The notes under the pieces were generated by a model, which worked only from the letters and a program-made list of their open reading frames with translations, did not search any database and was not told the DNA's origin. From Microthyrium microscopicum (lineage: Eukaryota): a stretch of DNA of 64,000 nucleotides. The stretch's first letter is position 1. Each line of letters opens with the position of its first letter. Where the stretch lies: the NCBI GenBank assembly GCA_010405405.1, contig MU004239.1, positions 434,001 to 498,000 on the forward strand. Reading direction: 5' to 3'. Of this stretch, positions 29,062 through 60,429 are shown piece by piece. Both the position numbers and the translations under genes were made by a program.

Positions 29062-29091
29062 AGCTAAAAACTAAAAAGATAAAACTTTAAT

Positions 29092-29266: not shown

Positions 29267-29726
29267 TTATAAAAAATTTACTTTTTAAAGTTTACTTTAA
29301 GTACTATTATTCTCTAGTAGTATATATATTATTACCCTTTTAGGCTATATATTCCTACTTTTTTATAGGTTTTTCTAGTAAGTTTTTTTTTACTTTTTTT
29401 ACTATTTTTTTACTAACTTTTTTTTAGTTAATTAGTATCTTACTAAGTAATCTCTACTTTTTATTTCTATTTTTAGAAGTATAAAAACCTTTTTTCTAAA
29501 GTATTTTTATAGCTTTTTTTAGTACGTTTATTTTTACTTTTTTTTACTTTTTATTTACTATTTATTTACTTTTTATTAACTTTATATTAGGCTTTTATTA
29601 TAGTAGTATTTCTACTTAGTATTATACTATTAGTATACATTCTAGTAAGTTTTTTCTTTATATTTTATTTATATTTAATTAACTTTTTTATTTAGTTTAT
29701 TACTTTTCTTATTAAAGATTATATTT

Positions 29727-31631: not shown

Positions 31632-32109
31632 ATTATATTTTCTTTAATATTTCTTTATATTATTTAAGATTTATCTTTATAGTATATACGCTATTCTTTA
31701 TTATTTAGCTAAAACCTAGTCTAAAAGCTATTATTATTTATAATTTAGTTTTTATTTCTTAGTTTTTACTTAAGTTTTCTATAACTTAGTTATTTATTAG
31801 CTATTTTATAAAGTCTTTATATTCTTAATCTATCTTTATAGTATTCTCTAGTTTACTAGAGTTATTATAGTATATCTTTCTATTTTCTATATAGATTTAT
31901 ATTAAAAAATATAAAAATAAAAAATAGTAGAAAAATATTTTTCTTCTCTTTTTATTTACTTTCTTATTTAGTTATACTATTTAAGACTAGTAAATTTCAT
32001 ACTATATACTTTTGCATATTTCTAATAGATCTACTAATTTAGAATTTCTTATTTAGCTCTAGATTTTAATCTAGAAATAAAAGAGATACTTATTATTATA
32101 TTTCTATTC

Positions 32110-40500: not shown

Positions 40501-41138
40501 CTTCTCTTTTATTTAACCTCTTATAGTTATATTATATAATATTAATACTATTTATCTAAGTCTATTATTTAGATTTTACTTATTTTATTATTAGAGATTA
40601 GCTTAGAGTTATCTATAGCTTATCCTACTTTTTTATAGTTATTTTTTTATTAGTCTTTTAGGGCGCTATCTCTTATAGTTTATAAGCTATTATTATCTCT
40701 ATTAAAGTTAAATATACTTATAATTAATCTCTAAGTGCCTTAGACTAGGTTATTACGTACCTTATTCTCTATTTCTTATAATGCTAATAGTTTTTTAAGG
40801 TTCTTAGTCTCTACTTTTCTTTTCTTTATACTATTTACTATAATATATTTATTNNNNNNNNNNNNNNNNNNNNNNNNNNNNNNNNNNNNNNNNNNNNNNN
40901 NNNNNNNNNNNNNNNNNNNNNNNNNNNNNNNNNNNNNNNNNNNNNNNNNNNNNNNNNNNNNNNNNNNNNNNNNNNNNNNNNNNNNNNNNNNNNNNNNNNN
41001 NNNNNNNNNNNNNNNNNNNNNNNNNNNNNNNNNNNNNNNNNNNNNNNNNNNNNNNNNNNNNNNNNNNNNNNNNNNNNNNNNNNNNNNNNNNNNNNNNNNN
41101 NNNNNNNNNNNNNNNNNNNNNNNNNNNNNNNNNNNNNN

Positions 41139-44100
41139 ACTCTTCTTTCTCTCTAAGTTACCTTCCTATTTAGTAAGCTTATAATATAACTTATTTCTTT
41201 ATTATTTAACCTATAATATTAGGTAACTTTAAAACTAATTCCTCTTTTTACCTACTTCCTCTTCATTCGTTAATAAATAGCTAGAATAGTAGACTAAGAT
41301 TTCTCTTGCCTAATAACTACTAAACAAGATAGAAAAACGTTCTCTAAGGGCTTTACTCGTAAGAACGTAGAAGTATACTTTACGTATATTAACTAATAAT
41401 AGATAGAGCTATAGAACTACTTAGATATATCCTAGGAGGTAACTAATAATAGCTTATAATAAGTAATAGATAGCATTTTACTACTTAATAATACGCTTAA
41501 TTTATTTATCTTATAATTATATATAACTACTACTAGTTATAAATAAGCTCTATAATAACTAAATAAGTTAATTAGCAAAATTTATATACGATTAAATAAG
41601 AATACGTAATAGATTATAATAGTTTACGCTAAACTCTAAGCTTAAGTTAATAGCTAAAATAAATAGCTTACTAATATTTATACTAATAATAAGATCCTTA
41701 TATAATAAGTAAATAATACTATTTATAAGACGCTAACTTAGTAGTAGTAGTAAGAATAGAAATAACTTTAAAGAAAATTTATAACGCTTAATATAACTCT
41801 TTTTTTAATACTAGCTATACTCTTTACTAAAGAAACTTTTAACTATAGCTACTATCCTCTTTTAATTCTATAAGCTAATTCTCCTTAAACTCTAATTATA
41901 ATAGCTAGATTAGTAGCTCCTCCTTTACCTTCTCTAATAAATTCTTTAACTACCTAATATAAGCTACTTTAACTACTATTATAAAACCTCTAACTAGCTC
42001 TCCTAAACCTAGAATAATATTTATATAAGGACTTAACCCTTTATCCTAGTTTTTACTAAATAATTAAAGCGAAATTATATATTAATAAATAGATTTATAT
42101 AAATAACTATACCTAAATTTACTATATATTTAGCTAACTTATAGAAAACGCTACCTAATAAGTCCTTCCCTAGATTTAGAATTTTACTAGCTATAGTATT
42201 ATAAGTTTTAGTAAGTTTATAGAATAAATAGACCTTCTCTTTCGTAACTTATATAAAGAAATAAGAGCTTTAGCAAACCTTTAAGGAATCTAATAAGGAG
42301 GTAGAGAATAAAGAATCTTTTAGGCTAAGTTTTAGTAGTATCTTATCTATACTAGAGCATAATTTTAGGCCGCTCTTATTTAGATATAGTTCTTAGAAAA
42401 CGCTATAGATTCTAGTCTTAGGATAGCTCTAATTACTTATTTTTAATTTAATAATTTAGATACCTTTGCCTAAGAAGCTTTAAAGACCTAGAATTAAATA
42501 GTTTAAGCTTATATAAGCTATTATAACTTAAGAAGCCTAAGCGCTAAAATAAGTACTTAGTAGAGTTAATTGTCTAGAAATTAAGACCTAGACGCAATAA
42601 AAGGCGTCTAAGTTAGAGCTAGCTAAGCCTAGCGTAACTACTATAAACAAAATAATCTTTATTTTTGCTATAGCTTAGCTAATTATAAGATTTAAGATTA
42701 TAAATAAGCGCTCTAAATATTATTTAAAAGTTAGAATTCCTTTTGTAGCTAAGTTAGCTATAAACGAAAATAAGGTAGAGGAGGTACTACTAAAGGTAAA
42801 CGTCTATAGAATAATACTAGTAGATTCTAAGCTAGTACTACTAATGCTCTAGATATTCCTTAGAGTAGCTAGCTAGTAAAAGCTACTACTACTTAGCTAA
42901 GAAATAATAATCCTTATAATAATCTATATAATATTACTAATATAGAATTAGAAAACTAATAAGCTTAGATTAAAAACATAATACTAAGCTAGAAAATTAT
43001 AAAAATATTATTTTAGGATAGCATTAGAAATTCTTTACTTAAAATATAGTTATAAAACCCTTTTTAATATTTTTAATAGTAAATTAACTTTTTTTATATA
43101 TAAGCTTTATTAATAGTAGCTACTTAACTTATTCTCTTATAAGTCTTTGCTTTGTCTAAAGATGTAAACTTAAACGCATATTACTACCTTAGGTAATTCC
43201 TATTAAAGAGATAAATAGTAAAGCTAGAGAAATTTATAAAATAGTAATTATAAAGATTAATATTAAAGGCTATAAAGAAACTATTTAAGCCTTTATAGTA
43301 AAAGAGACCTTAGGCTATAATATAATCTTTAGCTTACCTTAAATAAAGAAATAGGATATTATTCTCTATATAAAACCTAAGAAGCTAGTCTTTAATAAAA
43401 TAGATTATATAGTTATAAGTCTAAAGACTCCTTAAAAGAAGTATAATTATATAGCAATTAAAGCTATAGTATTTAGGATACTTGCTTAATAAGCTAGAAA
43501 ATAGGCAAAATAGTCTTAAAAAAGCTTAATACTAATTGTATAAGTCTTTACTATAAGTCTTTACGACTTATAAAAAGCCTTTACTCTAAAGAAGTATATT
43601 AATCTTTATAGAAAGCTTTCTAAATAGTATTTAAATTACCTTAACCTCTTTTAAAGAGAGCTAGCTAATAAATAGCTACTTATCTAAGACTTTTTTATAG
43701 ACTATAAGATTAACTTAATTCTAAACGCTAATAGAAAGAAACCTTAGTTACCTTAGTAGGTATTATACTCTATAAATTAGGATAAATTACTAGCCCTTAG
43801 AAAAATTCTTAATAATCTACTAGAAAGTAGATTTATTTAAGTAAGTAACTTACTTACTAGAGCACTAGTTCTCTTCGTTTATAAAGTAGATAAATTAATT
43901 TAGTTTTATTATAACTACTACGTGTTAAATAAGTTAACTATAAAGAATTATTACCTCTTACTACTTATTTATAAGATACTAAACGCCTTAAGAAAGGTAT
44001 AATAGTTTACTAAGCTAGACGTATCTTAAGTATTCTATAAGATTTAAATATATAAAAGTAATAAGTAGAAGATAGCCTTTTAGATATAATATAGCCTATT

Positions 44101-47100
44101 TAAATAGATAGTAATACTATTTAAGTTATTAAATATTCTAAGCACCTTTTAAAGGTTTATTAACTCTACTCTTTAGAATATCTTAGATAACTACGTTTTT
44201 ATATACTTAGATAACGTCTTAATTTTTAGCTTAAGTACTAGGAAGCAATATAAAGCTTACGTTTATAAAGTCCTTAAATAGCTATAAAAAGTAGAACTCT
44301 ACCTTAATATCTAAAAGTATAAATTTATAACTACTTAGATAATATACTTAGATTATATTATTAAGGCTAGATAAGGAATCTTAATAAATTTAGTTAAAGT
44401 TAAAGTAATCTAAGAATAGAAGACTTCTAAGAATATTTATAGAGTTTAAGCTTTCTTTAGCTTTACTAACTTCTATTATAAGTTTATACTAAACTTTTAA
44501 ATAATTATAGAACCTCTTATTTAACTTACCTAGAAGGATGTTCTCTTCTTATTTAAAGACCTAAAGAGAGCTATATTTAAGGAGCTAAAATAGCTCTTTA
44601 TTACTAACTAAATACTAGCCCTATTTAACTATAATAAAGAAACTCTTATCTATACTAACTTTTCTAGTTACTCTTTAGGAGCTATACTAGTATAAAAAAA
44701 TAAGATAAGTAAGTTTTAACTAATAGCCTATTTCTTTAAAAAGTATAACTCTACTTAAAGTAACTATTTAATTTATAATAAAGAGATGCTTATAATTATA
44801 CTTACTTTAGAAGAATAGGACTTAAAGCTATAAGTAGTAAAGAAGTTTAAAGTAATATCTAATTATAAGAACTTAAAGTATTTTATAAAACTATAGAAGT
44901 TTATAGAAAGGCATATCTAATAGTTAATTAAACTTATAAAGTATAATATAATAATTAAGTATTAACTAGGTCTATAGAATAGCGTAGTAGATAGTCTCTC
45001 TTATTATAAATAAAATATGCCCTAGGACGTAGTTAATAAAAGAATTTAGGCTAAAACTTTCTAACTACTTTATACCTAAGAGAATTAATTACTTAAACTA
45101 TTATAAGCTTTACTTATCTATATTATTACTCTTTCTATAATAGTTAAAGATAAATTAGTAGAAACTTTACTAGCTAATAAAGCTCTAATTCCTAGTTTAC
45201 TACTATTAATACTAAACGTTTCTAAACTATTAATAACCTAATAGAATAAAGTAGTATAAGCTAATAATACTTATTAAGTAGCCTATTAAATAATTAAAGC
45301 TAATAGATAAAAGTTTCCTCTATTAATTATAAGTATTAAGATCTCTATTCTTAACTACTTAATTAATAGTAAGGATTACCTTTACTAGAAAGGATAACTA
45401 TAGATCCTAAATCTAGAACCTTTATAGATAGTAATACTATAAATAGCTTATATATTCTTAACCTAAGGCTATTCTAGCTATAAAGGTACTTACTAAGCTC
45501 TATAGCTATACTTCTTCTAGCCTAGAATTATAGCTAATATAAAGCATTTCGTAAAGAATTATAGTATATATAACTAATTAAAGGTTAGTTATAAGTAAAA
45601 AAGAAACTTCCTAAAGCCTTTACCTATCCTAAGCTAATAATAATAAGAACTATCTATAGATTTTATAATGAACCTTCCTCTATTAAATAAATATATAATC
45701 TTAATAGTTATTACTAATTAGCTAAATAAAAGAGTAATTTTAATCCCTCTTGCTTAAAAAAAAGCTAAAGACGTTATAGCTATTTTCTTATAATACGTCT
45801 ATTTCCTTTATAATATTCTTAACGTAATTATCTATAATTATAACTTAGTATTTATAAAAAACTTTTAAATAAAGTTCTACGCGCTACTATAGATAGAGCT
45901 ATAGCTATTAACTATATTTTACTCCTAAATAAATAGCTCTATAAAATAATAGAACTTAGATATTAAAGCTAAAGTATAAATATATATAAATTATATATAA
46001 TTAAACTAGTTCTTACTAATACTAATACTTTAACTTATACTTAACTTATAACGCTTATCTATAATAAAACTCTTATCCTTCTTTTTATTCTATAGCTTTA
46101 AAAACTTTACCTTCCTAAACTTTCCTAAGTAAGCTCCCTTATCTAAATAGAAGGATACTCTAAAAAAGAGGAAAAAAAAAGCTACTTGTATAATTTTAAA
46201 AGCTACGAAATAAGCTTAAAATACTATAACCCTTACCTAAGAAAGAATATAAAAATAAGCTAACTAAATAAGGATCTAAATACCTAAATATAAAGTTAGT
46301 AATTAGGTTTAGCTAGACTTAAAGAATACTAAGACTAAATAAGCAAAGAAAAAGTTTAATTACTATTACTCTAAGTTCTAAGTTATAAAAGTAGTAAGCT
46401 TATATATAATTATACTAAATACGCTATAAAGAACTAAGAAATTCTATATTAACCTACTTAGACTAGTAACGAATAACCTATTTCTAAGTTAAGACGCTAA
46501 TAATTCTTATCTACTACTAATCTTAGTTAAGAACTTAAATAGAGAGGAATAAGAGAAGTAGCTAGTAGAGAAGATTATAGCTAAAAAATATAAAAAAATA
46601 ATAAAGAATAAACTTTGTATAGTCTACGTTATTAAATAGGTAGGTTATTTAGATATAATAAAAGAATTAATTAATTTTATTAAATAGTTAGAAGCCTATA
46701 TAAAGTAGATAAAGAAGATAAAGTACGTATAAGATAATTATAGAAGATTAGTACTAAACTAGTCTATTCTTTAAGTATAACTAAGATTAAAAACTAGCCC
46801 TCCTATTATAGTAATTAACTCTATAGAGATATAATTAAAAGTGCTATTTATAACCTATATATAGAAACACTTTTCTTTTATCTATACTAAGACCCTCTTT
46901 CCTACTAAATAAAACTAGAAAATTATAAAAATATAAAAAAACTAAAGAAATAAGATACGCTTAATAAACCCTTACTATTAAAGAAGATAAACTTAAGTAG
47001 TACTTTAAGATATAAGAAAACTAAAGTAGATAATTAATAGTAAAGAATTCTTATTCTCTTTAGTAACCTCCTCTTTATTATTATAAGGATACTTCTTACC

Positions 47101-48612
47101 TAAGCTAATATTATTATTATAGACGTAGTTTAAATATATATTATTACGAAATCCTAAAAGCTAAACGTAACTTATATATTATAGCTAATTCTTTAAATTA
47201 GAATAGCTAACGTAATAAATATAATACTACTCTTTATAAGTCTTATTCTACTTATTTTTAGTAGAAAATTATAAAATACCTATATAATAAATACCTAAGA
47301 CTTTAAGATAACTAGCCTAGCTACTAGTTAACTAAATTGTACTAAGAAAGCTCTAACGAATTATAATACTATAAATATTAAGTTATAAATTATTAGTAAA
47401 CCCCTTAGAGGAGGCGTTTAATAAGTTAAAACGCTTATTAGAGGAGTTAAGAAGATAGTTAGTTATAATATAAAGGACCTTACTCTATAAACACTTTAGT
47501 ATAAATTAAGAAAGGCTAGAAAAATATATATAGTCTAGTTAATATAAAGTGCCTTAAATAAAGCATAGTTTTATAAATTATAGTAATTAATAACTATATA
47601 TACCTTCTTATATTAGAGAGTAGTTAATAAATAGGAACAAGAATTATAAATAATATTATTCTAATAATAAAGTAGAACTTAGTTAAGAAAGTAAAGACTT
47701 TTATTTACATTATTCTAGTAGGCCTTACGTATAGCTATCTCGTACGTAGTAGGCAAATAAGGTTAAGAAGCATTATAATTAGTAACGTATATATAAGAAG
47801 AAGTAATAGTAATAAGAATATAACTATTAAAGTTAATAGTATTATTAAAAGTATTAATAATTAGGGTAGCTATCTCTATATAGTTAGTAAAGCTATAGCT
47901 ACTATAATAAATAGCTTACTTAATTAATTAATTAATTAGGTAAGAAAGAAGAAACTTAATAAGGACTAATTAGAAGAGAAGAAGCTTATTTAAAGTATAA
48001 TAAAGAAAGAATAATTAACTCTATAAAATAATATTACTTTATATCTTCTAAATATATAGATAGAAGCATAGTAACTTAACTATAGTTATATTCTTCTAAT
48101 CTTATTCTTTAATATCATAATAGAGCTTTAACTAAGTATAAATAAGACGACCTACTAATTAAGTAACCTTTATAGAATTATAACTAAAAAGAACTAACAT
48201 TATATACTAAGAAAGGGGCCTTATACTTAGAATTTAGTCTAAAATAGGCAAAACACTAGTATGGAACTAATAGTTAACGACCTAAGCTTTATATTTCATA
48301 CTTAAAAGTAAATATATAGATTTATATATTATAAATAAAAGCTTTGTTATAAAACGTAAGAATAGTAAGCGTTAAATATAGCTAGATAAGATTAAGATCT
48401 TATAATTAACTTAGTATTTTAGCTAGAATTTTTTTAGATAGGGAGAGTAATATTAGGAGTTAAACCTCCTAAAGCTATACTTATTTAAGCTACTCCTATT
48501 ATATATAAATACCTTAATTAAAGAGTCTCTTAACTTTTCTTTCTCTCTAAGTTACCTTCCTATTTAGTAGGCTTACAATATAACTTATCTCTTTATTATC
48601 TAACCTATAATA
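41139..48612 (+). mobile_element. Ty3/Gypsy chromovirus LTR retrotransposon, RIP-degraded (start of the 5' LTR lies in the N gap)
   Basis: 5' LTR remnant 41139-41218 matches the 3' LTR. Domain order: gag zinc knuckle (~42660), protease (~43105), RT YLDNVLIFS (~44204), RNase H (YNKEML), integrase (H..HP, ELSIDF), chromodomain EK*LVEKIIA...YVIK*VGY (~46555-46650). PPT AGGGAGAG precedes the 3' LTR. Confidence 0.92.
48451..48612 (+). repeat. 3' LTR (162 bp) of the Gypsy element
   Basis: TATTAGG...CCTATAATA (RIPped TG...CA termini). Its last ~80 bp are nearly identical to 41139-41218. Contains TATATAAA at 48502. Confidence 0.85.
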
Positions 48613-50712
48613 CTATATCTAGTTTAAGTAGAGCTCTTAGAATCTTTACTAGATAGTCTTATTATAAGATCTAGACTTTATTTAAGCCTACCTAGCGTAG
48701 TCTATTTTAGATATAGTCCTTATCTAATTATATATTAACTATAATGTTAATATTCTTACTAGATAGTAGCTTAATAGCTATTACCTATAGGATAGTTTCC
48801 TTAATCTTTTTAAATAGCTTTACTCTATCTTACTTATCTTTCTTTAATATATTTTTAACTACTTTTATAATATTAATTTAGACTATTAAGCTTATAAAGG
48901 AGGCTCTTTAGTTAGGGATTAGTAGGTTAGGTTCTTTTGTAACCTTTGTCTAGGAGTTAGGAATTATTTTAATTTTAGTAATCTGCTTTATAATCGTATT
49001 AAGTTTTTAGTTAAGACGCGTTTTAAGGCGTGTTAGTAGAAAGGCCTTATTTATAATTAGAGCTAGATAGAATACTAGTTATTTAACGTAGTTTTATACT
49101 ATAATAAAGGATATATAGTATTATATAAAATTAGCTATTAGCTAGTTAAGGAATAGTTATATTAGATCCCTCTCTTTAGATATAAGTCCTTCTAATAGTA
49201 CTTTAATTCCTCTCTATATTTCTATAAGTAGTAGTTTTAGGTTATCTTTTTATTTCTATATTGCCTTATTTTTAATATAGGTAGCCTCTATAGTAATAAC
49301 GGCTATCTACTACGAATCTTTATTTATCTCTATAGCGCTAGCTATTATTTGCGTCTAGTTAAAAGTTATATTATTATAATAGTCTTAATAAGACGAATCT
49401 AATAATAATAGTTTTATAGAATAATTCTAAGAAATTAATCTTTTAGTATGATAATACTTTTCCTAAAATAGATTTAAATAGTATATTAATATTACTATAC
49501 TCTTTAATAAAGTAATATAATATAATTTACTTAGTTTAAAAGTAAAGTCTAAAAATAAAGTTTAAAATTAAAGAAAACTAATTAACTAATAGTTAAAAAA
49601 GAACTATTAAAGTAGACTTAGATAGTATAAATAAGCTTTAGTATACTTATATAAGTTTTATATCTTAACTAGGTTATAATACTATATAGATTAATTAGTT
49701 ATTAATTATTATAATAATTTAAACTAGATTTAGTTTAGAATAAGAATAATAATTAGTACTACTAGAANNNNNNNNNNNNNNNNNNNNNNNNNNNNNNNNN
49801 NNNNNNNNNNNNNNNNNNNNNNNNNNNNNNNNNNNNNNNNNNNNNNNNNNNNNNNNNNNNNNNNNNNNNNNNNNNNNNNNNNNNNNNNNNNNNNNNNNNN
49901 NNNNNNNNNNNNNNNNNNNNNNNNNNNNNNNNNNNNNNNNNNNNNNNNNNNNNNNNNNNNNNNNNNNNNNNNNNNNNNNNNNNNNNNNNNNNNNNNNNNN
50001 NNNNNNNNNNNNNNNNNNNNNNNNNNNNNNNNNNNNNNNNNNNNNNNNNNNNNNNNNNNNNNNNNNNNNNNNNNNNNNNNNNNNNNNNNNNNNNNNNNNN
50101 NNNNNNNNNNNNNNNNNNNNNNNNNNNNNNNNNNNNNNNNNNNNNNNNNNNNNNNNNNNNNNNNNNNNNNNNNNNNNNNNNNNNNNNNNNNNNNNNNNNN
50201 NNNNNNNNNNNNNNNNNNNNNNNNNNNNNNNNNNNNNNNNNNNNNNNNNNNNNNNNNNNNNNNNNNNNNNNNNNNNNNNNNNNNNNNNNNNNNNNNNNNN
50301 NNNNNNNNNNNNNNNNNNNNNNNNNNNNNNNNNNNNNNNNNNNNNNNNNNNNNNNNNNNNNNNNNNNNNNNNNNNNNNNNNNNNNNNNNNNNNNNNNNNN
50401 NNNNNNNNNNNNNNNNNNNNNNNNNNNNNNNNNNNNNNNNNNNNNNNNNNNNNNNNNNNNNNNNNNNNNNNNNNNNNNNNNNNNNNNNNNNNNNNNNNNN
50501 NNNNNNNNNNNNNNNNNNNNNNNNNNNNNNNNNNNNNNNNNNNNNNNNNNNNNNNNNNNNNNNNNNNNNNNNNNNNNNNNNNNNNNNNNNNNNNNNNNNN
50601 NNNNNNNNNNNNNNNNNNNNNNNNNNNNNNNNNNNNNNNNNNNNNNNNNNNNNNNNNNNNNNNNNNNNNNNNNNNNNNNNNNNNNNNNNNNNNNNNNNNN
50701 NNNNNNNNNNNN

Positions 50713-51086
50713 TATTTTACTTAATACTAGACTATATAATTAACTTTAATACTAAAATAATATTAAAAAAATACTAAATTTAAACTTTATCCTAGAATGG
50801 TTAGTCTAAGAAGAAAACTAAGACTAGTATTAGAATCTACGTAACTAGCTAATTCAAATGCTATAGTTTTTATTAGATTTAAAAAACTAGTATTAAATAA
50901 TAGTAAATACTAGTTATTATAATAATATTATTACTAGTTAGTAACTAGTATTAGAAAATACTAGTCTATTAATTAACTATTCCTAGAGTATACTAATACT
51001 ATTTAGTACTAGTATTGAAAATAAAAAACTAGTCTAGTACTAGTATTGGCTGATAATAGAGTAGACTAAATAGTTTACTAACCCTG
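50713..51086 (-). repeat. Right subterminal repeats and TIR of the hAT element
   Basis: Many ACTAGTATT/AATACTAG motifs, ending ACTAAATAGTTTACTAACCCTG. Confidence 0.85.
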
Positions 51087-53080: not shown

Positions 53081-55816
53081 TCATAAAGGAGGGTCATACG
53101 TCCATATCATCTCATGGCTATGATCAACATCCTCGCTGCTGGTCGCATATCGTCCTTGCTCGACGTATGTACTAAATGTATTGCTCATGTGGAGAGACTG
53201 GCCAGCTTCATCTTTCTTTCCATAAACTTGCTCCCGAAGATGATTGAGCCTAGCTTCAGCTCGCTGTACTGTGTCCTTCACCTTCATACGTCGCAGCGTG
53301 CGCCGCAGCAAAATAGATTCCTCGCCAGTCTGAATATACTGCAAAATATCTGGCAAGTGCACAACGGTTGCGTTTGAATAGACGTCGGTTCCCTGATTCA
53401 TCTCTTTCTGGAGCGTTGCTTCCTGGGAGGGCGCTTCTCTCGTCGTCTTTGCCATCTCTGCCATCTCCTGGGCAAGATATTCCCATGCAATCATGTCTAT
53501 CGCCATTCGGTCTTTTGCCATCTGCTCTATTTCCATCTGTTCCTCTGCCAATTGTCTCTGAGCCATAGGCCCTTCTGCTGTTTGTCCCGCAAACACCAGA
53601 TCGCGTTCTAGTAAATCCTCTTCAATCCATTCCAGATCAGTTGACTCCTCATCTGACAAGTCTTCGTCGAAGGGTTCCTGCGCCAGTTGGTCCTGCTCCA
53701 TCTGTTGTTGCTCTTGGGCCTGCTCCATCTGTTGCTTTGATTGATCTTGCTCCATTTGTTGTTTTATTTGATCCTGCTCTATCTGTGCTTTAAGTTGGTC
53801 CTGCTCGATCTGTTGTTTAAGTTGATCCTGCTCAACCTGTTGTCTTATACGGTCCTGTTCTATCTGTTGCTTTCTTTGTTCCTGCTCCATCTGCTCACCC
53901 TCGATCTTTTCTTTCCCCACAAGCACTAGCTGGAGTAGCTGGTCTTGTTTCTGCAGTCTTCTCTGTCTGCGCTCGAATCTCTGAGCCTCCGCAGTCTGCA
54001 TGTGCGGAGACAACGACTTCGTCATATCTTCCAATATCTCGTTTGACTCTCGCATCGTTATTCCTTGTTGCTGATCAAGAATCCTGTCGATAAGTCTGTC
54101 TGCCTGAACATTATCTGAGTTTGTGACCAGTCGCATTGTAACGGCGCCAAGTTCCGGTGAGCATCCCAGGTTTGCTGCCCTTTGAATCAGGTCTCGGTTT
54201 GCGATTAGATCTATCGTAAAGTTATCCCAGCTATTGGTCAATGCCCTCGCTTTCCAGTCTTTCCAATACTTGGCAACGTATTCAGAACTCGACAGTATGA
54301 GTGTCTGAGATGCGCGATCTAACGATGATTCTTTCCGGCAAAATTCGATTGCGAGCTCAAGGCCTAAAACCAGAGCTTCAATTTTGGCACGTATGGTTGT
54401 GAGCCCCGAGTGGTTGGGAAGAACTCGTACAGATCCAAAGGGATTTGAGCCTTGAGATTTGAGAATAGCCGCAGCGGCTCCTATCTTTTGGCCATCGTCA
54501 GTGTTCCTACAGTCTCCATTGATATGAAGGACTAAGGGACCAATCGGTTTTGCCGCTTTCTGCGCAAGTTGGGTAAGTTGCTCTTTTGCTCTTTGTTCTT
54601 TCACTCGCTTCTCTTCTGCTATCCTTTTTCTAGCCATCTGCACTTGAATCTTTAGCTTCTTAGCCACTTCGTCTTGTCCCGGCAACGGTGATTCCTTCAA
54701 CTTGGGCTCGGTCAAATTCTTTCTTGGTATTTCGTCTTCGGACGGTTCATCTTCAGATGATTCATCCTCAGTCAAATCAACCTCCGTCGAATCACTTTCT
54801 ATCAATCCACCTGTTGGTTTCCCCTCTGTCGATTTACCCGTCACAGGTTCAACCTCTGTCATTTCACCCTCGGTCGATTCACTTGCTGTCGACTCGTCAT
54901 CTGTTGATTCATCGTCTGTCGATTCACTTTCCGTGGATACATCGTCCATGTGATCTGGTCGTCTCCGTTCTTGATCCAGGCGCTCTTGCTCTAGTCGCTC
55001 TTGTTCAAGTCGCTCTTGTTCAAGCCGCTCCTGCTTAAGTCGCTCCTGTTCCAGTTCCTCTCGCTCCCGTTCTCGCTCCATCTTTTTCATTAGCTTACGT
55101 TGCCGTTTGCTCTGCCTTTTGCTTTCGGGGCGATCTATCTGTTCTTGACACATTTCCTCCACATTCTCCATCTGTTCCGCCAGCTTACGTTTTCTCTGTC
55201 TATTGCTCTCCGGCTCCTTCGTCTTCTCTGGCTTCTTTCCTCCATTCTGGTCTTTGAGCTTACGGTTTCTTTCCCCTTTTGTTTGCTTAACTGTGACCAT
55301 GATCGTCTCTAGTGTCTCCAAGGGCATCCTGTTTTTTCTCCGAAGGTTACGCGCTTTTCGCAGCTGTGTCTGGTAAATTATAGTCGCCCTCATCACCGCC
55401 CTTTCTGAGGTGCATCGGAGCTCCAGCTCGCCAAGTTCTTCAGAGCGTGCAAGAGTTGCAGCCTTTTCAAGAAGATCCTGATCTTCAAATGGACCTTTCG
55501 TTGAACTTGACGGTTGTCTTAGCCAGGAAATCAAGTCTTTTATCACATCGCCATCGGCTGAGTAAAGGTTGGTTCCAGAAGTCTGATCCGGAGATTGTTT
55601 TTTGTAGTAGTCCAGCGCGAATTCTAGGCCGAGAATGATAGCTTCAAGTTCAGCACGACGGGCCGTAAGCTCTGGATGCTGGCCTAGCAATCGCATGCAG
55701 CCCGTTGAACCTTGTTTAGAGGGTGCTCGCAGATGAGCCGCAGCAGCTCCTGATGCAATGGGATGACGATCATTAAGGCAGGAACCGCTGACCCGAACGG
55801 CGACGTTCCCTATCAT
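53081..55816 (-). CDS. 911-aa protein with two degenerate RNase H-like domains plus coiled-coil and acidic repeats
   Basis: Domain 1 VRVSGSC...GAAAA...TARRAELEAIILGLE...DQDLLEKA. Domain 2 LHINGDCRN...IGAAAA...TTIRAKIEALVLGLE...SSSEYVA...IANRDLIQRA...NVQADRL. Repeats (EQERL)n, (DDEST)-like and (QQIEQDQLK)n. Confidence 0.8.
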   Translation of the reverse strand: MIGNVAVRVSGSCLNDRHPIASGAAAAHLRAPSKQGSTGCMRLLGQHPELTARRAELEAIILGLEFALDYYKKQSPDQTSGTNLYSADGDVIKDLISWLRQPSSSTKGPFEDQDLLEKAATLARSEELGELELRCTSERAVMRATIIYQTQLRKARNLRRKNRMPLETLETIMVTVKQTKGERNRKLKDQNGGKKPEKTKEPESNRQRKRKLAEQMENVEEMCQEQIDRPESKRQSKRQRKLMKKMEREREREELEQERLKQERLEQERLEQERLEQERLDQERRRPDHMDDVSTESESTDDESTDDESTASESTEGEMTEVEPVTGKSTEGKPTGGLIESDSTEVDLTEDESSEDEPSEDEIPRKNLTEPKLKESPLPGQDEVAKKLKIQVQMARKRIAEEKRVKEQRAKEQLTQLAQKAAKPIGPLVLHINGDCRNTDDGQKIGAAAAILKSQGSNPFGSVRVLPNHSGLTTIRAKIEALVLGLELAIEFCRKESSLDRASQTLILSSSEYVAKYWKDWKARALTNSWDNFTIDLIANRDLIQRAANLGCSPELGAVTMRLVTNSDNVQADRLIDRILDQQQGITMRESNEILEDMTKSLSPHMQTAEAQRFERRQRRLQKQDQLLQLVLVGKEKIEGEQMEQEQRKQQIEQDRIRQQVEQDQLKQQIEQDQLKAQIEQDQIKQQMEQDQSKQQMEQAQEQQQMEQDQLAQEPFDEDLSDEESTDLEWIEEDLLERDLVFAGQTAEGPMAQRQLAEEQMEIEQMAKDRMAIDMIAWEYLAQEMAEMAKTTREAPSQEATLQKEMNQGTDVYSNATVVHLPDILQYIQTGEESILLRRTLRRMKVKDTVQRAEARLNHLREQVYGKKDEAGQSLHMSNTFSTYVEQGRYATSSEDVDHSHEMIWTYDPPL

Positions 55817-56572
55817 CTTGGCCGGGATAGATGATGCGAAGGTGATGGCTGAAGTTCAAGGTATCAGTCGAAGTGGAATATGATCGGATCCATGTGCTTC
55901 ATCTCCGGTGATGCTTGGAAAGTGGCTTGGATTGTCTCACACCCCCTGGATAGAAAGGAAAAGATATTGTCTGAACTCTCGGACATTAAAGCTCTGCCCT
56001 ATGTCTACTGGCAAGAAGTCAGAACGATGGGAAGCTACGCGAACAGTGAGGTTGAACCACGCGATGATATATGCACGGGCTAGTACGAATCGGGATTGGT
56101 GGCTGAAGGAGCAAGGCCTCAACGAAGCATGGAGATTGAGGATATATAACGGAGAGTTGAAATGTTGAGACATCTCATGAATTTCAGAGATGTCAGCGTA
56201 ACCGAAAGTTCCAAATATGTATTAGAGCTAAAATTGAAAGGCAGTTCTGGTACACACCACAGTGTGGTCGATCTTATCACCACCTCATTCTCGGGAAGCA
56301 ACAAGGCAGGGAGATTGGCTACTTTCTCTATAACGATACTGTCTACTTCAACGTAGAGCGCAGATGAGGATATGACTTAGCTTTTATTAGTCTTGAGATA
56401 GCTGATCTCAACTATTTGGTTGGAATTAACCATATTTCCAAGCTGACAGGTATCACATTCGCTTGAAGACGCAAATCAAGATCAAAAGATTGAATCCACA
56501 TTGACTAGTACCAACATCAATAACAATACAGATGACTCCGGTAGTCAAGTAGCGAACCCGAGCTCTCCATGT

Positions 56573-57061
56573 CTATCCCTGTTCATTCAAAGCGCAGCTG
56601 CAATATTCGTAGGCGCGGCCATTGTACAATGGTAATATGAAGATATATCGCACCTTCCCAAGGCTACACATCTTGTCATGAAGAACCTTTGCATATCGAA
56701 GCAGATCATGGTTTGCCATCGGCAGGCCAGAAGAATCGACCCAGCCGTCACGGTGCCACGTGTGAATACCTCTCTTCATGCAGTGGATTGCGTCCTGAGA
56801 GGACGAGTATATGGAAAGATCGAGCGGAGGGCCCCATTTCAACTTATGCTATTTGGTCCAGGCGGCTTCCAGCGCCATGATGATCGCCGCGAGTTCGGCT
56901 CGAATTTTTGTAGGCCTTGAAAGTTTTGGTAAGTGACCCGTCCAAACTACATGGTCCCTAGTTGAGCGCAAGTCTTGCACAACCGCTGCTGCACCGGCCC
57001 ATGGAGTACGTCCGTTGTTTCTGCAGAGACCATAGACTTCAAAGCGCATAATGAACCCCAT
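56573..57061 (-). pseudogene. RNase H-like gene with a single in-frame TAG (56851-56849) and a degenerate active site
   Basis: ORFs 56849-57097 and 56573-56842 share one frame: MGFIMRFEVYGLCRNNG...IRAELAAIIMALEAAWTK*HKLKWGPPLDLSIYSSSQDAIHCM...GWVDSSGLPMANHDLL. The first ATG is at 57061; the ORF-track start at 57097 is GTG. Confidence 0.8.
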
Positions 57062-58199
57062 TGTTGACTCTGGATGTAGATACAGGAGTGGTGTCACAAC
57101 AACTCGTGTCTGTCATGAGTTTATCGAGTCAGCTTCTTGGCTATCATGAGCGTGGAACATCCTTCTTACAATGCAAGTAGCTCAGTACTATTTCGCCAAC
57201 CGGAGAATGAGTTCGGATACTGTCTGACGGGGGATGGAGATAAGTGATGCATAAGACGATGGCGGCCAGTGAAAGGTGAGGTGTTTGGAGCAATGATGGT
57301 TTACGCTGTGAGTATAGCATATGACGAGAGATAGAGAAGCGAGGAGAAGTCCAGGTCGGAGACACTTTGAGTGCTGTGCGTCCGGTCCTGTCAACAATAA
57401 GAAAGCTGAAGGAAGCGACGTCCACGACTCGACATCTGGGCCTCCACCCGAAGGATAGAGGCAAGTGTAATGGATAGAGTCCGTAGCTTCCGTGAAACAA
57501 AAATGGGTCTTGGACATCTGCAAAGACTCACAAGAAGGACCATGCCGGAGCAATTCGACCTATTCTGAGCCTATGTGTTCCTTCTTGTATCCTTAAGTTC
57601 TTGGCCAGTGAGGTATTCCGGAATTGCCATCATCGTTGCTTGTTGAAATGATCAGGTCTCGAGAAGAATCCAATACAATTATCCAGATGGAACAATCAGA
57701 CGAGGGAGATATGTACCTGGGTAAGTAGTGAGTAGTTCCCAAGGGTCAAAGCCCCACAATCAGTAGGTACTTGACCAATTACCGTGCATAAGGCTGAAAG
57801 TGTCAATCAGCCTTATCTTATCCTCGCCTTTCTAAGCGATCAAAGAGAGGCATTTCCCGCCCAAGTTTTGTGCAAACATGCTGGCTGCACCTGAGGATTC
57901 GGGTTTTTTGAATGATGTTCTTTCATGCTGAGTTTCGAAATGCTCAAATCATTGCACAAGCACAGCCCAAGCTTCGCTTAAGAGCACAAGTACGAGGGCA
58001 GAACAAAGGAAGAGAGATATTAAGCTGTCATCCGAGGAGAGGTCCAAGATTATAGAAGAGCACTCGGCAAATATTCGAGAATACCAGACTGTCAGACAGC
58101 TCATCATGAGAAGGCTGGATTGAGTACTTCCAAGTTCGCAGCAACAAGCAATTCCCTAGAAGTAATCCATATATCTAATTCCAATCACTGAATTTGGAG

Positions 58200-59174
58200 T
58201 TAGCGTATGCCTTGGTAATTACAGAGCACCACATTTGGCCAGTTGGGAGCTTGATGTAGATCTTGCTGACACTTACGTGTATTGGTTCGCTCGGGGGATC
58301 TTAACCCCATTGCTCGCTCAGCTTTAAGCTGACTGGTTTTAATAGCTTCTTGACGCAGCTTTTCCTGGTTCGATTTATCTCTTTCCATGAGACGGCGGAG
58401 CACCGTAGCTTCCTCCTGCGACTGGATGTCCTGGATTATTCGAAGGACGAGAGTGCCTTCTTTGCTGGGTTTGTAGGTGTTCCACTCTGGTCGCTCCCCA
58501 TACTCCTTACATGCGAGCTCCACCCACAAAGTCTTCGTAGCTGATATTTGCCTTTGCCGAGCTTCTTCTTGCTTCATTCTTTGCACTCTAGCTATTTGCT
58601 CGGCCTGCTCCTTCGCCCTCTGCTTTTCTCTTTCCAGTTCTTGTTCTGCCCTTTGTCGTTCTAATATACGGTTTTGCTTATTCCTCGCGTTCCGTTCTTG
58701 TCGATCTAGCTGATCATTGCAAAGTGCGTCCGCTTCTACGTTCCTCTCTCGTGGGATCCAAATGACTTCGAGACCTCCTTGTGCTCTCAACTGGTCCCTG
58801 AGCTGTGCAGCTTCAAATATGAGATCCCTGTTGACAACAAGTTCCCCCTTTGCATTAAGCCAGCCGCACTGAGACCATTTGTCACACCAGAGGTTCATGC
58901 AGTCAACTGCATATCGAGAATCGGCATGTATCTTCGTTCTGCGAGGCCTGCCTACCCGTACCCTAGTGTATATCTCGCGTGTTCGCTTCAAGGCAAGAAT
59001 GGTAGCTTCTAGTTCAGCGCGTTGACTGGTGGGCTTGCGGGAAGGGGGGATTGCCTGCTTGAGACACAAATGTTCGCGGCCAGAGGAAAGCACGACTCCT
59101 ATGGCTCCTATGGCCTGAGGAGTGCCATTGCCTCTACAGCCACCATCTACAAAGATGGACAAGCTGTATTCCAT
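58200..59174 (-). CDS. Dikarya-type RNase H1-like protein with a coiled-coil C-terminal extension
   Basis: All four acidic catalytic positions are present: FVDGGCRGNG, SQRAEL, IHADSRYA, WIPRERNVEADALC. Also GWLNAKGELVVNRDLI. Confidence 0.9.
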   Translation of the reverse strand: MEYSLSIFVDGGCRGNGTPQAIGAIGVVLSSGREHLCLKQAIPPSRKPTSQRAELEATILALKRTREIYTRVRVGRPRRTKIHADSRYAVDCMNLWCDKWSQCGWLNAKGELVVNRDLIFEAAQLRDQLRAQGGLEVIWIPRERNVEADALCNDQLDRQERNARNKQNRILERQRAEQELEREKQRAKEQAEQIARVQRMKQEEARQRQISATKTLWVELACKEYGERPEWNTYKPSKEGTLVLRIIQDIQSQEEATVLRRLMERDKSNQEKLRQEAIKTSQLKAERAMGLRSPERTNTRKCQQDLHQAPNWPNVVLCNYQGIR

Positions 59175-59984
59175 TATGCGACGTAATTGATGGCAAACGA
59201 CTAGTGCTTTGCGTTAGAGGCTAAGTGTTGTGCTGGACTGTGCAGTTTCGCGTCCTCACAGTAAATAGAAGTCGGGTACTTCGAGGTCAACGTGAATGAA
59301 GCAACGTGTGATTGTTTAATGTTGAGGTTGGTAGGTAGCAGTACTCTATGAGAACGGAAGTGGATAGAGAAGCACCTCAAAGGTACGAATTCAGTGGTAG
59401 CGAATGGGTGCACATTGAAAAGATGCTGACGTGAAGGCGATGATGATTGCTCACTTCTAGGCGTCTGCATGCATGATAAAGCCAAACACGATCATTGGTA
59501 GACCATTGGTGTTCTAGATCAGCAATCGAAAGTAACTATCCAATCGGAGGATTTCCATACTGCGCAAGGACTTAAGGAGACATGGTGGTGGATCTTACCC
59601 CAGTTCTAGCAAGGATTTGAGATGATGTGAACACGGCAATTATTGCTGCCGTTTAGCTTTCAACTCCTTGTCGAGTCCTCCCGTTACAGTCATTCCGAAA
59701 GACTATTTTGAAATGGTCATATATAAAACTTTCAGCGACTTGAACAGCAAGGAATCTTGATTTATGACTCTTTGAATTTCGCCAGAAGAACTGATCAAGA
59801 TGGCTCAAACAGGTGTTGTTAAAGCAAGCTCTTAAACTTTAAGGTGATAGGAGAAACCTGCTTCAATTTGCTATCAAGAAGATCTTGCTACGCACACCAC
59901 ATTAGAGCGTATACAAAACGACACCAAAGATAAGATCGATCGTGTTATACAGTCAAAATCTGTGTAAAAAATCCAAAGATGAAA

Positions 59985-60429
59985 TCAAGTCTCCTCGAAA
60001 GGGTTCATTCCTGCACTTGAACAGGCAGAACAGGCGGGTAGATCATTGACATTCAATTTCGAAAAGTCGACGTCCATGCCAGTCGAATGTTGTGGCAATT
60101 CCTTCACGGCATGATAATTCATGTGTCCCATTCTTCGGTGCCATAGCATCGCCGCTTCAATAACCTTGGGATCGGTGGTATTTCTCTCTAGAGCAAATAT
60201 GTTAGTCATTAATAACGAATATGATGAACGTGGCATTACTGTATTTAGCTTCAAATTCAGCTTGCTGTTCTTCGCGGAACCCATCAATCAGTTTCTTGGC
60301 TTCATCAATGTCCTCAGGGAATTTCAGGCCGTAGGAAATCATGAATTGTGGCATGCCATCATAACCGGCGTCTTTCAACCATTTCGAATCGGACTTGTAT
60401 TTGGGTTCGATCACCTCTAGAACAACCAT
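59985..60429 (-). CDS. 130-aa protein: small helical domain fused to a GAG-pre-integrase-like Zn motif (intron 60239-60188)
   Basis: The GTAATG...GACTAAC...CTAG intron joins AEFEAKY-K-RNTTDPKV in frame. C-terminal LWHRRMGHMN...CSAC; N-terminal WLKDAGYDGMPQFMISYGLK. Confidence 0.8.

What the first reader, a model, noticed from the sequence alone, without database searches (positions are those of the whole stretch)
53081..59174. Tandem RNase H array: one active enzyme plus three pseudo-nuclease domains, next to a retroelement island
Seen: three co-oriented, intronless, un-RIPped genes with four RNase H-fold domains. Only 58200-59174 keeps D-E-D-D. The first Asp is Y in the 57-kb copy (third and fourth also lost), S in domain 1 and N in domain 2 (also E to K and D to S) of the 911-aa protein, while structural motifs (GAAAA, RAEL, NxDL) persist. 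A GAG-pre-integrase-motif gene follows on the same strand. Inference: a diversifying enzyme/pseudoenzyme module that could sense or degrade RNA:DNA hybrids (anti-retrotransposon or R-loop control) or act in a genetic conflict. Function is speculative.
Basis: partly seen in the sequence, partly recalled or inferred. Interest (0 to 1): 0.75.

Follow-up and report, generated by a model that had tools for sequence, protein, structure and literature searches.

The report
Fungal live-and-dead RNase H gene cluster
Three neighbouring genes of the fungus Microthyrium microscopicum carry four copies of the RNase H fold: one looks like a working enzyme, one is a broken pseudogene, and one is a transcribed 911-residue protein made of two catalytically dead copies. 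This is an unusual local offshoot of a widespread but unstudied fungal gene family, and its role is unknown.

Summary
A family-specific HMM finds exactly four RNase H-family domains in the window, all on the minus strand, and only the 58.2-59.2 kb gene keeps D-E-D-D.

Corrections:
- The "57-kb copy" has an in-frame TAG at 56849-56851 that no splice in the RNA contig removes. It is a transcribed pseudogene.
- The active gene is not intronless. It has a leader intron and a coding intron, and its product is 309 aa rather than 324 aa.
- Domain 1 of the 911-aa protein also lacks the third and fourth acidic residues and the basic protrusion.

Spliced contigs of one public run cover all three loci. 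The 911-aa ORF is an internal duplication of a [dead RNase H - basic - coiled-coil - acidic] unit. It has no full-length relatives, and its open frame is hard to explain by neutral decay.

The domain belongs to a large, uncharacterised fungal family closest to cellular RNase H1 but without a hybrid-binding domain. About a quarter of complete domains in that family carry active-site substitutions. The same genome holds other live/dead two-domain paralogs, and this scan noted such clusters earlier on other DNA of this genome. An anti-retroelement or hybrid-sensing role remains untested.

The parts
58156..59393 (-). Active RNase H gene (annotated 309-aa 'ribonuclease H-like protein' of Microthyrium microscopicum). 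The transcript 5' end lies near 59393. Leader intron 59201-59259; ATG at 59174; CDS 59174-58277 joined to 58187-58156; coding intron 58188-58276. The RNase H domain is 58677-59174 with D10/E54/D85/D149, followed by a charged coiled-coil-like tail that has no relatives.
   Evidence: PF00075, 4.4e-15; 100% match to P0001; best solved relative is the human RNase H1 catalytic domain, 8.5e-7.
56576..57061 (-). RNase H-family pseudogene (the '57-kb copy'). It spans 162 codons with an in-frame TAG at 56849-56851. The catalytic columns read Y/E/S/Y. It lies on the same RNA contig as the active gene, about 1.1 kb downstream of that gene's stop.
   Evidence: (7.1e-42 to the family HMM). The 70-aa ORF is not in the protein collection.
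57110..57169 (-). A 60-nt GT-AG intron, 48 nt upstream of the pseudogene's ATG. It mirrors the leader intron of the active gene and suggests the pseudogene was once a separate spliced gene.
53081..55816 (-). Unspliced 911-aa ORF. Layout: dead RNase H domain 1, basic/coiled-coil/acidic linker, dead RNase H domain 2, Q/E-rich coiled-coil repeats, C-terminal tail. One colinear RNA contig spans 52314-55937.
55421..55807 (-). Dead RNase H domain 1 (residues 4-132 by HMM). Catalytic columns: S10 (AGC), E56, A87 (GCC), no fourth Asp. The basic protrusion is deleted.
   Evidence: 5.6e-12; AF2 pLDDT 89.5; Foldseek E. coli RNase HI, 2.3e-7.
54062..54529 (-). Dead RNase H domain 2 (residues 429-585). Catalytic columns: N433 (AAT), K478 (AAA), S510 (AGT), D573 kept.
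   Evidence: 2e-14 against the active gene; 3.9e-25; pLDDT 89.3; Foldseek RNase HI/H1, 8e-9.
53687..53893 (-). Tandem repeat of 27 nt (7.7 copies) that encodes the Q/E-rich nonapeptide repeats after domain 2. A second 15-nt array at 54969-55055 encodes the EQERL repeats after domain 1.
   Evidence: translation.
59985..60429 (-). Neighbouring spliced gene (intron 60188-60239) whose best ORF is 130 aa. It carries a copia-type GAG-pre-integrase / integrase zinc-finger motif and no other retroelement domain.
   Evidence: (PF13976, 1.7e-9).
26500..51000 (.). Flanking AT-rich, RIP-mutated transposon block (GC about 0.21, CRI +1.59) with Gypsy-type RT-RNaseH and hAT remnants and two runs of N.

Best explanation
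The locus is a birth-and-death cluster of a fungal gene family. The family derives from the catalytic domain of cellular RNase H1, has no hybrid-binding domain, and is expanded in Microthyrium microscopicum.

- Gene 1 (309 aa, spliced) most likely is a working metal-dependent RNase H that cuts the RNA strand of RNA:DNA hybrids. It has all four acidic residues and the Trp-rich basic protrusion, plus a lineage-specific charged coiled-coil tail.
- Gene 2 is a dead duplicate: a premature stop and three of four catalytic residues lost. It is still covered by the RNA contig.
- Gene 3 (911 aa) arose by internal duplication of a whole [RNase H - basic - coiled-coil - acidic] unit. Neither domain can bind the catalytic metals, yet both keep a confidently predicted RNase H fold, and the long frame has stayed open while the halves diverged to about 27% identity. 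I read it as a non-catalytic protein kept by selection: a scaffold or binding protein built on the RNase H fold and on coiled coils. I do not read it as an enzyme or as junk.

Shown: domain identity, residue states, splicing, RNA cover, internal duplication.
Inferred: activity of gene 1, selection on gene 3, and any binding role.
For: - Four domains, no more, with family-HMM E-values from 5.6e-12 to 2.5e-70.
- Catalytic columns.
- Closest solved relatives of the active domain are human RNase H1 (8.5e-7) and E. coli RNase HI (2e-6). Among the 50 listed hits, the unmodified HIV RT RNase H domain scores 0.0034, although an HIV-1 RNase H engineered with the E. coli loop (3hyf) reaches 1.3e-5.
- The all-library HMMER search gave 3622 hits at E<=1e-3 and 378 at E<=1e-10. 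All 150 listed are 88-660 aa. The 12 fetched and read, 234-660 aa, showed only RNase H domains, hybrid-binding-like or LRR-like extensions and unknown tails. No family scan for reverse transcriptase was run on the hits.
- AF2 models of both dead domains have pLDDT 89 and match RNase HI/H1 structures.
- The two halves of the 911-aa protein align colinearly over about 350 residues (1e-20), and their domains are sisters (97/95).
- The ORF has 435 single-base routes to a stop. P(no stop) is 7e-4 at 5% neutral divergence. The other five frames hold 29-56 stops each.
- RNA contigs with seven canonical splice joints cover the loci, and none covers the AT block.
- Paralogs P0018 and P0053 in the same genome share derived T and R at catalytic columns 3 and 4 of their second domains, which are sisters (100/96). 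A dead domain therefore survived a gene duplication and later divergence to 37% identity.
- A tree that holds the four window domains together is not rejected and scores higher than the free tree (p-AU 0.73). This fits local duplication.
Against: - No orthologue of the 911-aa protein was found in any other species, so purifying selection could not be measured directly.
- Much of the protein is low-complexity repeat that can expand quickly.
- RNA evidence comes from the contigs of a single run that the tool labels RNA only as a guess. For the unspliced 911 locus it gives neither strand nor proof of translation.
- A pseudogene sits next door, and 35 of 138 fully aligned family domains carry active-site substitutions, so decay is common in this family.
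- The active gene lacks the His-containing loop of cellular RNase H1, and its activity is untested.
- The AF2 models were built on alignments of RNase H family members, so their fold is partly guided by those sequences.
Confidence: 0.6

Rival explanations
1. One reading: the three genes form one enzyme/pseudoenzyme module. The dead domains sense or hold RNA:DNA hybrids (R-loops or retroelement replication intermediates) and the live enzyme degrades them, as a defence against retrotransposons or as part of a genetic conflict.
For: - The cluster abuts a 25-kb RIPped transposon block that includes a Gypsy-type remnant.
- The family is expanded, clustered and fast-diverging in this genome.
- Tandem dead-domain proteins arose twice independently.
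- A HET/NB-ARC/TPR immune-type gene lies in the same window.
- All three loci are covered by RNA contigs.
Against: - The dead domains have lost more than the catalytic residues. They have also replaced the Asn-Gln of the conserved T-N-Q-R-A-E motif, and domain 1 lacks the basic protrusion. By recall, these parts contact the substrate in human RNase H1.
- None of the proteins has a hybrid-binding domain.
- One of the three 'module' members is a pseudogene.
- The domains are only 24-33% identical, so this is not a recently co-amplified unit.
- No data link expression or function to retroelements.
Confidence: 0.15
2. The 911-aa ORF is a non-functional, decaying duplicate. It is transcribed only through leftover promoter activity, and its frame is still open by chance or because the loss of function is very recent.
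For: - It is an orphan at full length.
- Pfam does not recognise it above threshold.
- It has large low-complexity tandem-repeat tracts.
- The adjacent family member is a clear pseudogene.
- Active-site loss is frequent across the family.
Against: - Keeping 911 codons open, with 435 one-step routes to a stop, has P about 0.055 at 2% and 7e-4 at 5% neutral divergence.
- The two halves have diverged to 27% identity since their duplication without a single stop or frameshift.
- The fold-defining core motifs persist and give confident models.
- An RNA contig covers the whole ORF plus UTR-like flanks.
Confidence: 0.15
3. The genes are domesticated or captured retroelement RNase H modules (LINE- or LTR-type) rather than derivatives of the cellular RNase H1 gene.
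For: - Pfam also gives a weaker RVT_3 match (1e-4) to the active gene.
- A copia-type integrase-motif gene and a RIPped Gypsy remnant lie nearby.
I did not check that claim.
Against: - The best solved relatives are cellular RNase H1/HI.
- A yeast RNase H1 with hybrid-binding domains (P0015, Spathaspora) ranks third of 3622 hits at 42% identity and nests within the family in the tree, though without support.
- The family HMM does not detect the Gypsy RNase H remnant in the same window.
- No listed hit is longer than 660 aa.
- The genes have their own spliceosomal introns.
Confidence: 0.07

Closest known systems
Eukaryotic/bacterial type 1 RNase H (human RNase H1 catalytic domain, PDB 2QK9; E. 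coli RNase HI)
   Same: Same fold. The active gene has the same D-E-D-D tetrad, the same T-(N/S)-Q-R-A-E motif and a Trp-rich basic protrusion, aligned residue by residue. Foldseek puts the dead-domain models on RNase HI/H1 structures.
   Different: There is no N-terminal hybrid-binding domain (no PF01693 hit; the protein starts at strand 1). There is no Gly-His loop before the last Asp. The tail is a lineage-specific coiled coil. Three of the four domains in the window are catalytically dead.
Uncharacterised fungal single-domain 'ribonuclease H / RNase H-like' proteins of about 160-185 aa (e.g. P0002 Mollisiaceae, P0003 Penicillium manginii, P0004 Hypoxylon texense, P0017 Myotisia, P0022 Apiospora, P0061 Rutstroemia)
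   Same: Same domain at 41-51% identity to the active gene, with the same D-G-G-C-R-G-N-G and P-R-E-x-N-x-x-A-D motifs. This family also shows scattered active-site loss: Xylariaceae, Mycena crocata and Orbilia oligospora.
   Different: Those proteins consist of the domain alone. The window's genes add long charged coiled-coil tails. The 911-aa protein strings two dead domains together and has no full-length relative.
Paralogs P0018 (541 aa) and P0053 (480 aa) of the same genome, on another contig
   Same: Same layout: RNase H, charged or acidic linker, then a dead RNase H (second-domain tetrads E-E-T-R and D-R-T-R).
   Different: Their first domains are intact or nearly so (DEDD, DEDH). Their internal duplication is independent of the one in the 911-aa gene. 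They group with the single-domain paralog P0066 (95/93), while the two 911 domains are each other's sisters (97/95).
Retroviral reverse transcriptase 'connection/tether' domain next to the active RNase H domain (Malik and Eickbush 2001; recalled, not read here)
   Same: A degenerate, non-catalytic RNase H fold is kept beside a live RNase H, which shows that dead RNase H folds can be retained as structural modules.
   Different: In the retroviral case both folds lie in one polyprotein together with reverse transcriptase. Here there is no reverse transcriptase, the live and dead folds are in separate genes, and the two-domain protein is dead in both folds.

Membership tests
Type 1 RNase H (Pfam PF00075; RNase HI/H1) | RNase H fold (five-stranded sheet with flanking helices) | tested here: met
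   Active gene: PF00075 at 4.4e-15 and sequence hits to solved RNase H1/HI. 911 domains 1 and 2: AF2 pLDDT 89.5 and 89.3, with Foldseek top hits to RNase HI/H1 at 2.3e-7 and 8.1e-9. The models were guided by family alignments. Pseudogene: family HMM 7.1e-42.
Type 1 RNase H (Pfam PF00075; RNase HI/H1) | Catalytic D-E-D-D tetrad | tested here: met
   Met only for the 309-aa gene (D10/E54/D85/D149). Not met for the pseudogene (Y/E/S/Y), 911 domain 1 (S/E/A/none) or 911 domain 2 (N/K/S/D). These three are relatives of the family by descent and fold, not enzymes of it.
Type 1 RNase H (Pfam PF00075; RNase HI/H1) | Cleavage of the RNA strand of RNA:DNA hybrids | not testable with these tools
   This needs a biochemical assay of the recombinant 309-aa protein.
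Eukaryotic cellular RNase H1 proper | N-terminal hybrid-binding domain (PF01693) joined by a linker to the catalytic domain | tested here: not met
   No PF01693 hit in either protein at E<=0.1. The 309-aa protein begins directly with strand 1 of the catalytic domain, and the RNA contig shows no upstream coding exon.
Retroelement RNase H (reverse-transcriptase-linked) | RNase H domain joined to, or adjacent to, a reverse transcriptase in the same element | tested here: not met
   Pfam finds no RT domain in the two proteins. Transcript boundaries and introns define stand-alone genes. No listed family hit exceeds 660 aa. The intergenic DNA of the cluster was not scanned for RT with Pfam.
Pseudoenzyme (dead paralog kept by selection) | Loss of catalytic residues with the fold retained | tested here: met
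Pseudoenzyme (dead paralog kept by selection) | Expression | tested here: inconclusive
   A 3647-nt contig of one run spans 52314-55937 colinearly. That the run is RNA is inferred from seven canonical splice joints elsewhere on the stretch and the absence of cover over the AT block. The strand and translation of the 911 ORF are not shown.
Pseudoenzyme (dead paralog kept by selection) | Purifying selection or conservation across species | tested here: inconclusive
   No orthologues were found, so dN/dS could not be done. Indirect support comes from the open-frame argument, the colinear divergence of the two halves, and the dead second domain shared by paralogs P0018 and P0053.

The most novel reading that the evidence does not exclude
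Microthyrium microscopicum has turned the RNase H1 catalytic fold into a family of selected, non-catalytic coiled-coil proteins. Tandem dead-domain architectures arose at least twice independently in one genome. These pseudo-RNases H would then act together with, or against, the live paralogs. They might read nucleic-acid structures, or act as decoys or inhibitors in a conflict with retroelements. That would be a fungal example of an enzyme/pseudoenzyme system built on RNase H.
Probability: 0.2. Interest if true: 0.7.

Novelty: new variant of a known kind. Interest (0 to 1): 0.4.

Why it matters
RNase H1 is usually a single-copy housekeeping enzyme that controls R-loops. Dead RNase H folds are known mainly inside retroviral polymerases and a few large complexes. 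Here a free-standing RNase H family multiplies in one fungal genome, loses its active site repeatedly, and still keeps long open, transcribed genes. If those proteins are functional, they would be a natural set of RNase H-fold binding proteins. They would also be a tractable case of how an enzyme fold is re-used after the chemistry is lost. If they are not functional, the cluster is a clean example of birth-and-death evolution beside a RIPped transposon block. Three full-text searches turned up no paper on such fungal RNase H pseudoenzymes.

Tried and rejected
- Whole-genome search of the window's own assembly: no genome is held. Paralog counts therefore rest on protein databases and earlier notes.
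- Word-index homology search with the 911-aa protein: only itself and three low-complexity matches.
- Profile search for longer or fused forms: only itself. The tool warns that long proteins crowd out relatives, so this is weak evidence.
- ESM Atlas look-up of the 911-aa protein: feature scores of 0.82 or less, which count as leads only. It recognises only the RNase H parts and gives nothing for the linkers or tail.
- C-terminal similarity between the 309-aa and 911-aa proteins: BLASTP E = 0.061, too weak to claim.
- Sequencing runs: no RNA holder is listed as such. The single holder, X1, is labelled RNA only as a guess. I treat it as RNA because its contigs are spliced. Contig depths cannot rank genes.
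- Enzyme-pseudoenzyme complex prediction (309-aa protein with residues 422-911 of the 911-aa protein): the job was not folded under a rule of the tool.
- Pfam on nine ORFs of the AT block: only the hAT fragment. A twelve-frame read-through scan was too large for one call. A two-frame scan of 41.2-49.8 kb, plus strand, found the Gypsy-type remnant. The third plus-strand frame and the minus strand of that stretch, and 26.5-41.2 kb in read-through, were not scanned.
- dN/dS between paralogous domains was rejected, because 19-40% protein identity leaves synonymous sites saturated.
- Backbone of the family tree: 36 of 64 inner branches are below 80 support. The positions of the active gene and the pseudogene relative to other fungi are unresolved.
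- Literature searches (listings and abstract openings only) gave nothing on this family.

Full report
**Organism and setting**

The 324-codon ORF at 58200-59174 (minus strand) matches at 100% identity a 309-aa protein annotated as 'ribonuclease H-like protein' of Microthyrium microscopicum, a dothideomycete.

The window has three parts:
- Ordinary genes at 1-26 kb: MOSC, PEX1, MDM31, a GMC oxidoreductase, an LRR protein, a HET plus NB-ARC/TPR gene, and a kinesin.
- A 25-kb AT-rich block (GC about 0.21, composite RIP index +1.59).
- Normal-GC DNA from 51 kb onward, which holds the finding.

I built an HMM from 16 family members and ran it over all six frames of the window with stops read as X. 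It finds exactly four domains, all on the minus strand:

| Window coordinates | E-value |
|---|---|
| 58677-59174 | 3.7e-69 |
| 56576-57061 | 3.4e-40 |
| 55421-55807 | 6.5e-12 |
| 54062-54529 | 6.0e-25 |

Pfam alone sees only the first one (RNase_H, 4.4e-15). It gives the 911-aa ORF a sub-threshold RVT_3 hit (0.016). BLASTP of the active gene against the 911-aa ORF gives 2e-14 for domain 2 and 5e-4 for domain 1.

The four catalytic columns, with codons where read, are as follows:

| Domain | Column 1 | Column 2 | Column 3 | Column 4 |
|---|---|---|---|---|
| Active gene | D10 | E54 | D85 | D149 |
| 57-kb copy | Y | E | S | Y |
| 911 domain 1 | S (AGC) | E | A (GCC) | no Asp |
| 911 domain 2 | N (AAT) | K (AAA) | S (AGT) | D |

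Domain 1 also has a deletion of the Trp-rich basic protrusion. The genes are not RIP-mutated, with composite indices of -0.6 to -0.9. The core of the observation therefore stands.

**Corrections from the DNA and from RNA**

The 57-kb copy has an in-frame TAG at 56849-56851, in the middle of the fold, with no GT..AG pair placed to remove it.

One public run (coded X1) holds 91% of the sampled words of the stretch. The tool labels it RNA only as a guess. Its contigs show seven joints with canonical GT..AG or CT..AC ends and leave the AT block uncovered. I therefore treat it as RNA, from one run of one study.

The contigs show the following:
- One 3064-nt contig runs on the minus strand from about 59393 to 56146.
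- It has three introns: 59201-59259, 58188-58276 and 57110-57169.
- Translated, it reproduces the annotated 309-aa protein exactly. The 324-aa ORF is therefore cut short by a coding intron.
- The contig continues about 1.1 kb further, through the third intron and straight through the stop-containing 57-kb copy.

A contig across two genes does not prove a single transcript. The intron 48 nt before the pseudogene's ATG mirrors the leader intron 26 nt before the active gene's ATG, which suggests a former separate gene. The 70-aa ORF before the TAG is not in the protein collection.

A second contig of 3647 nt covers 52314-55937 colinearly. That is the whole 911-aa ORF with UTR-like flanks and no intron. 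Its strand cannot be told from contigs.

**Anatomy of the 911-aa protein**

Its two halves align colinearly over about 350 residues (27% identity, 1e-20). The alignment covers the RNase H domain, then a basic stretch, then E/Q/R-L repeats, then an acidic Ser/Thr-rich stretch.

In a maximum-likelihood tree of 67 domain rows, domains 1 and 2 are sisters (ultrafast bootstrap 97, SH-aLRT 95). The rows were the eight M. microscopicum domains plus hits up to P0075 with at least 145 of 170 columns filled. The tool notes that the bootstrap had not fully settled. The gene is therefore an internal duplication of a unit with the same layout as the 309-aa protein.

Other features:
- The repeats are encoded by 27-nt and 15-nt tandem arrays.
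- Basic clusters (RKRK, KRQRK, RRQRR) are present. A nuclear location is only an inference.
- AF2 models of both domains are confident (pLDDT 89.5 and 89.3) and match RNase HI/H1 structures. The alignments that guided them consisted of family members.

Besides the catalytic residues, both dead domains have replaced the Asn-Gln of the conserved T-N-Q-R-A-E motif: T-A-R-R-A-E in domain 1 and T-T-I-R-A-K in domain 2. By recall of the human RNase H1-hybrid structure, not checked here, that pair contacts the RNA strand. This argues against canonical hybrid recognition.

**Is the 911-aa gene decaying or kept?**

No orthologue was found:
- The word-index search gave only itself plus three low-complexity hits.
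- A profile search for longer forms gave only itself (weak evidence, by the tool's own warning).
- None of the 150 best hits of the full HMMER search extends beyond the RNase H domain of the query, apart from P0001, the window's own annotated protein.

dN/dS was therefore impossible. Indirect evidence favours retention:
- The ORF has 435 single-base routes to a stop codon. P(no stop) is 0.055 at 2% and 7e-4 at 5% neutral divergence. The other five frames hold 29-56 stops each.
- The two halves diverged to 27% identity without a stop or a frameshift.
- At catalytic column 1, Ser AGC (domain 1) and Asn AAT (domain 2) are most simply joined through an ancestral Asn. This hints that the unit was already dead when it duplicated. 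The saving is one step of parsimony, so the hint is weak.

**The family**

HMMER against 1.84 billion representatives gives 3622 hits at E<=1e-3, 378 at E<=1e-10 and 13 at E<=1e-30. The 150 listed are 88-660 aa and mostly single-domain.

Named members come from a wide range of fungi:
- Leotiomycetes: Mollisiaceae, Rutstroemia.
- Eurotiomycetes: Penicillium, Talaromyces, Myotisia.
- Sordariomycetes: Hypoxylon, Hypomontagnella, Xylariaceae, Apiospora.
- Lecanoromycetes: Protoblastenia.
- Orbiliomycetes: Orbilia.
- Basidiomycota: Mycena, Phenoliferia, Punctularia.

The best solved relatives of the active domain are human RNase H1 (8.5e-7) and E. coli RNase HI (2e-6). The unmodified HIV RT RNase H domain is far weaker (0.0034), although an HIV-1 RNase H engineered with the E. 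coli loop reaches 1.3e-5. A Spathaspora RNase H with hybrid-binding domains ranks third overall. The window's proteins have no hybrid-binding domain and lack the Gly-His loop before the last Asp.

Active-site states across 177 domain rows from 161 proteins were as follows:

| State | Rows |
|---|---|
| D-E-D-D | 103 |
| Gap at one or more of the four columns (fragments or unaligned ends) | 39 |
| Complete, with at least one substitution | 35 (5 from M. microscopicum) |

I looked up ten substituted members. Five carry names: two Xylariaceae strains, Mycena crocata, and Orbilia oligospora, whose cluster has 9 members from several strains. The other five are unnamed. Active-site loss is thus a recurrent trait of the family.

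**Other copies in the same genome**

P0018 (541 aa) and P0053 (480 aa), on a 2.5-Mb contig, are RNase H - charged linker - RNase H proteins:

| Protein | First domain | Second domain |
|---|---|---|
| P0018 | DEDD | E-E-T-R |
| P0053 | DEDH | D-R-T-R |

Tree support for this group is as follows:
- The two second domains are sisters (100/96), and so are the two first domains (100/76).
- All four domains form a clade (97/93).
- The single-domain paralog P0066, which lies on the window's own contig, joins that clade (95/93).

A dead second domain, with shared T and R at columns 3 and 4, therefore predates that gene duplication and has persisted to 37% identity. The tandem architecture also arose independently of the 911-aa gene.

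An AU test does not reject a single clade of the four window domains. The constrained tree is in fact better by 16.4 log-likelihood units (p-AU 0.73). The tool warns that long branches can pull together, so local duplication is plausible but not shown.

Earlier notes of this scan describe two further clusters on other pieces of this genome: three genes with five domains mixing live and dead, and four stand-alone genes. I confirmed only the P0018/P0053 pair independently.

**Surroundings**

- The same-strand neighbour is a spliced gene (intron 60188-60239). Its best ORF, 130 aa, carries a copia-type GAG-pre-integrase zinc-finger motif and nothing else.
- On the plus strand, a three-intron gene at 60838-62750 has only a weak SUKH hit (0.036).
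- The AT block holds a hAT dimerisation remnant, a Gypsy-type RT-RNaseH remnant and runs of N.

It is a mixed transposon graveyard. Nothing links it functionally to the RNase H genes.

**Verdict**

The finding is a real cluster, only partly understood.
- Best reading (0.6): birth-and-death evolution of an RNase H1-derived family that lacks the hybrid-binding domain. It comprises one probable enzyme, one pseudogene, and one internally duplicated, doubly dead but retained coiled-coil protein of unknown binding role.
- The anti-retroelement or hybrid-sensing module (0.15), pure decay of the 911-aa gene (0.15) and a retroelement origin (0.07) remain open.

Three full-text searches found no description of fungal RNase H pseudoenzymes (listings and abstract openings only). 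A search on the species name found no genome-level study of this family.

Noticed in passing
window 16354-19727 (+): The window holds a HET domain ORF (PF06985, 4.1e-13) directly followed by an NB-ARC/NACHT plus TPR ORF (TPR_10, 3.1e-95). This looks like one fungal NLR-type incompatibility or immune gene split by an intron or a frame change.
   Followed up: no
window 59985-60429 (-), intron 60188-60239: A small spliced gene covered by RNA contigs has a best ORF of 130 aa. It keeps only the copia-type GAG-pre-integrase / integrase zinc-finger motif (PF13976, 1.7e-9). It may be a domesticated fragment or a transcribed relic.
   Followed up: partly
window 44564-44940 (+) and 34296-34535 (+): Inside the RIPped AT block, stop-read-through translation still detects a Gypsy-type RT-RNaseH remnant (PF17919, 6.4e-14; PF17917, 2.3e-11). 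An open 79-aa ORF keeps a hAT dimerisation domain (7.4e-14).
   Followed up: partly
window 49769-c.50720 and c.40800-41150: Runs of N (assembly gaps) lie inside the AT block. They show up as spurious ORFs open in all six frames.
   Followed up: yes
window 60838-62750 (+): A three-intron gene (introns 61063-61116, 61383-61442, 62162-62212 in the RNA contigs) has only a weak SMI1/KNR4 (SUKH) hit at 0.036 and no other family.
   Followed up: no
window 54062-54529 (-), codons 433 and 478: Two of the three catalytic losses in domain 2 of the 911-aa ORF (Asp to Asn AAT, Glu to Lys AAA) are G-to-A transitions. RIP makes this type of change, so mild RIP after duplication could have caused them. The gene as a whole shows no RIP signature.
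   Followed up: no
protein P0035 (626 aa, unnamed): One family member carries a long N-terminal extension before an intact C-terminal RNase H domain. By eye the extension looks leucine-rich-repeat-like. Fusions of this domain to other modules therefore exist.
   Followed up: no
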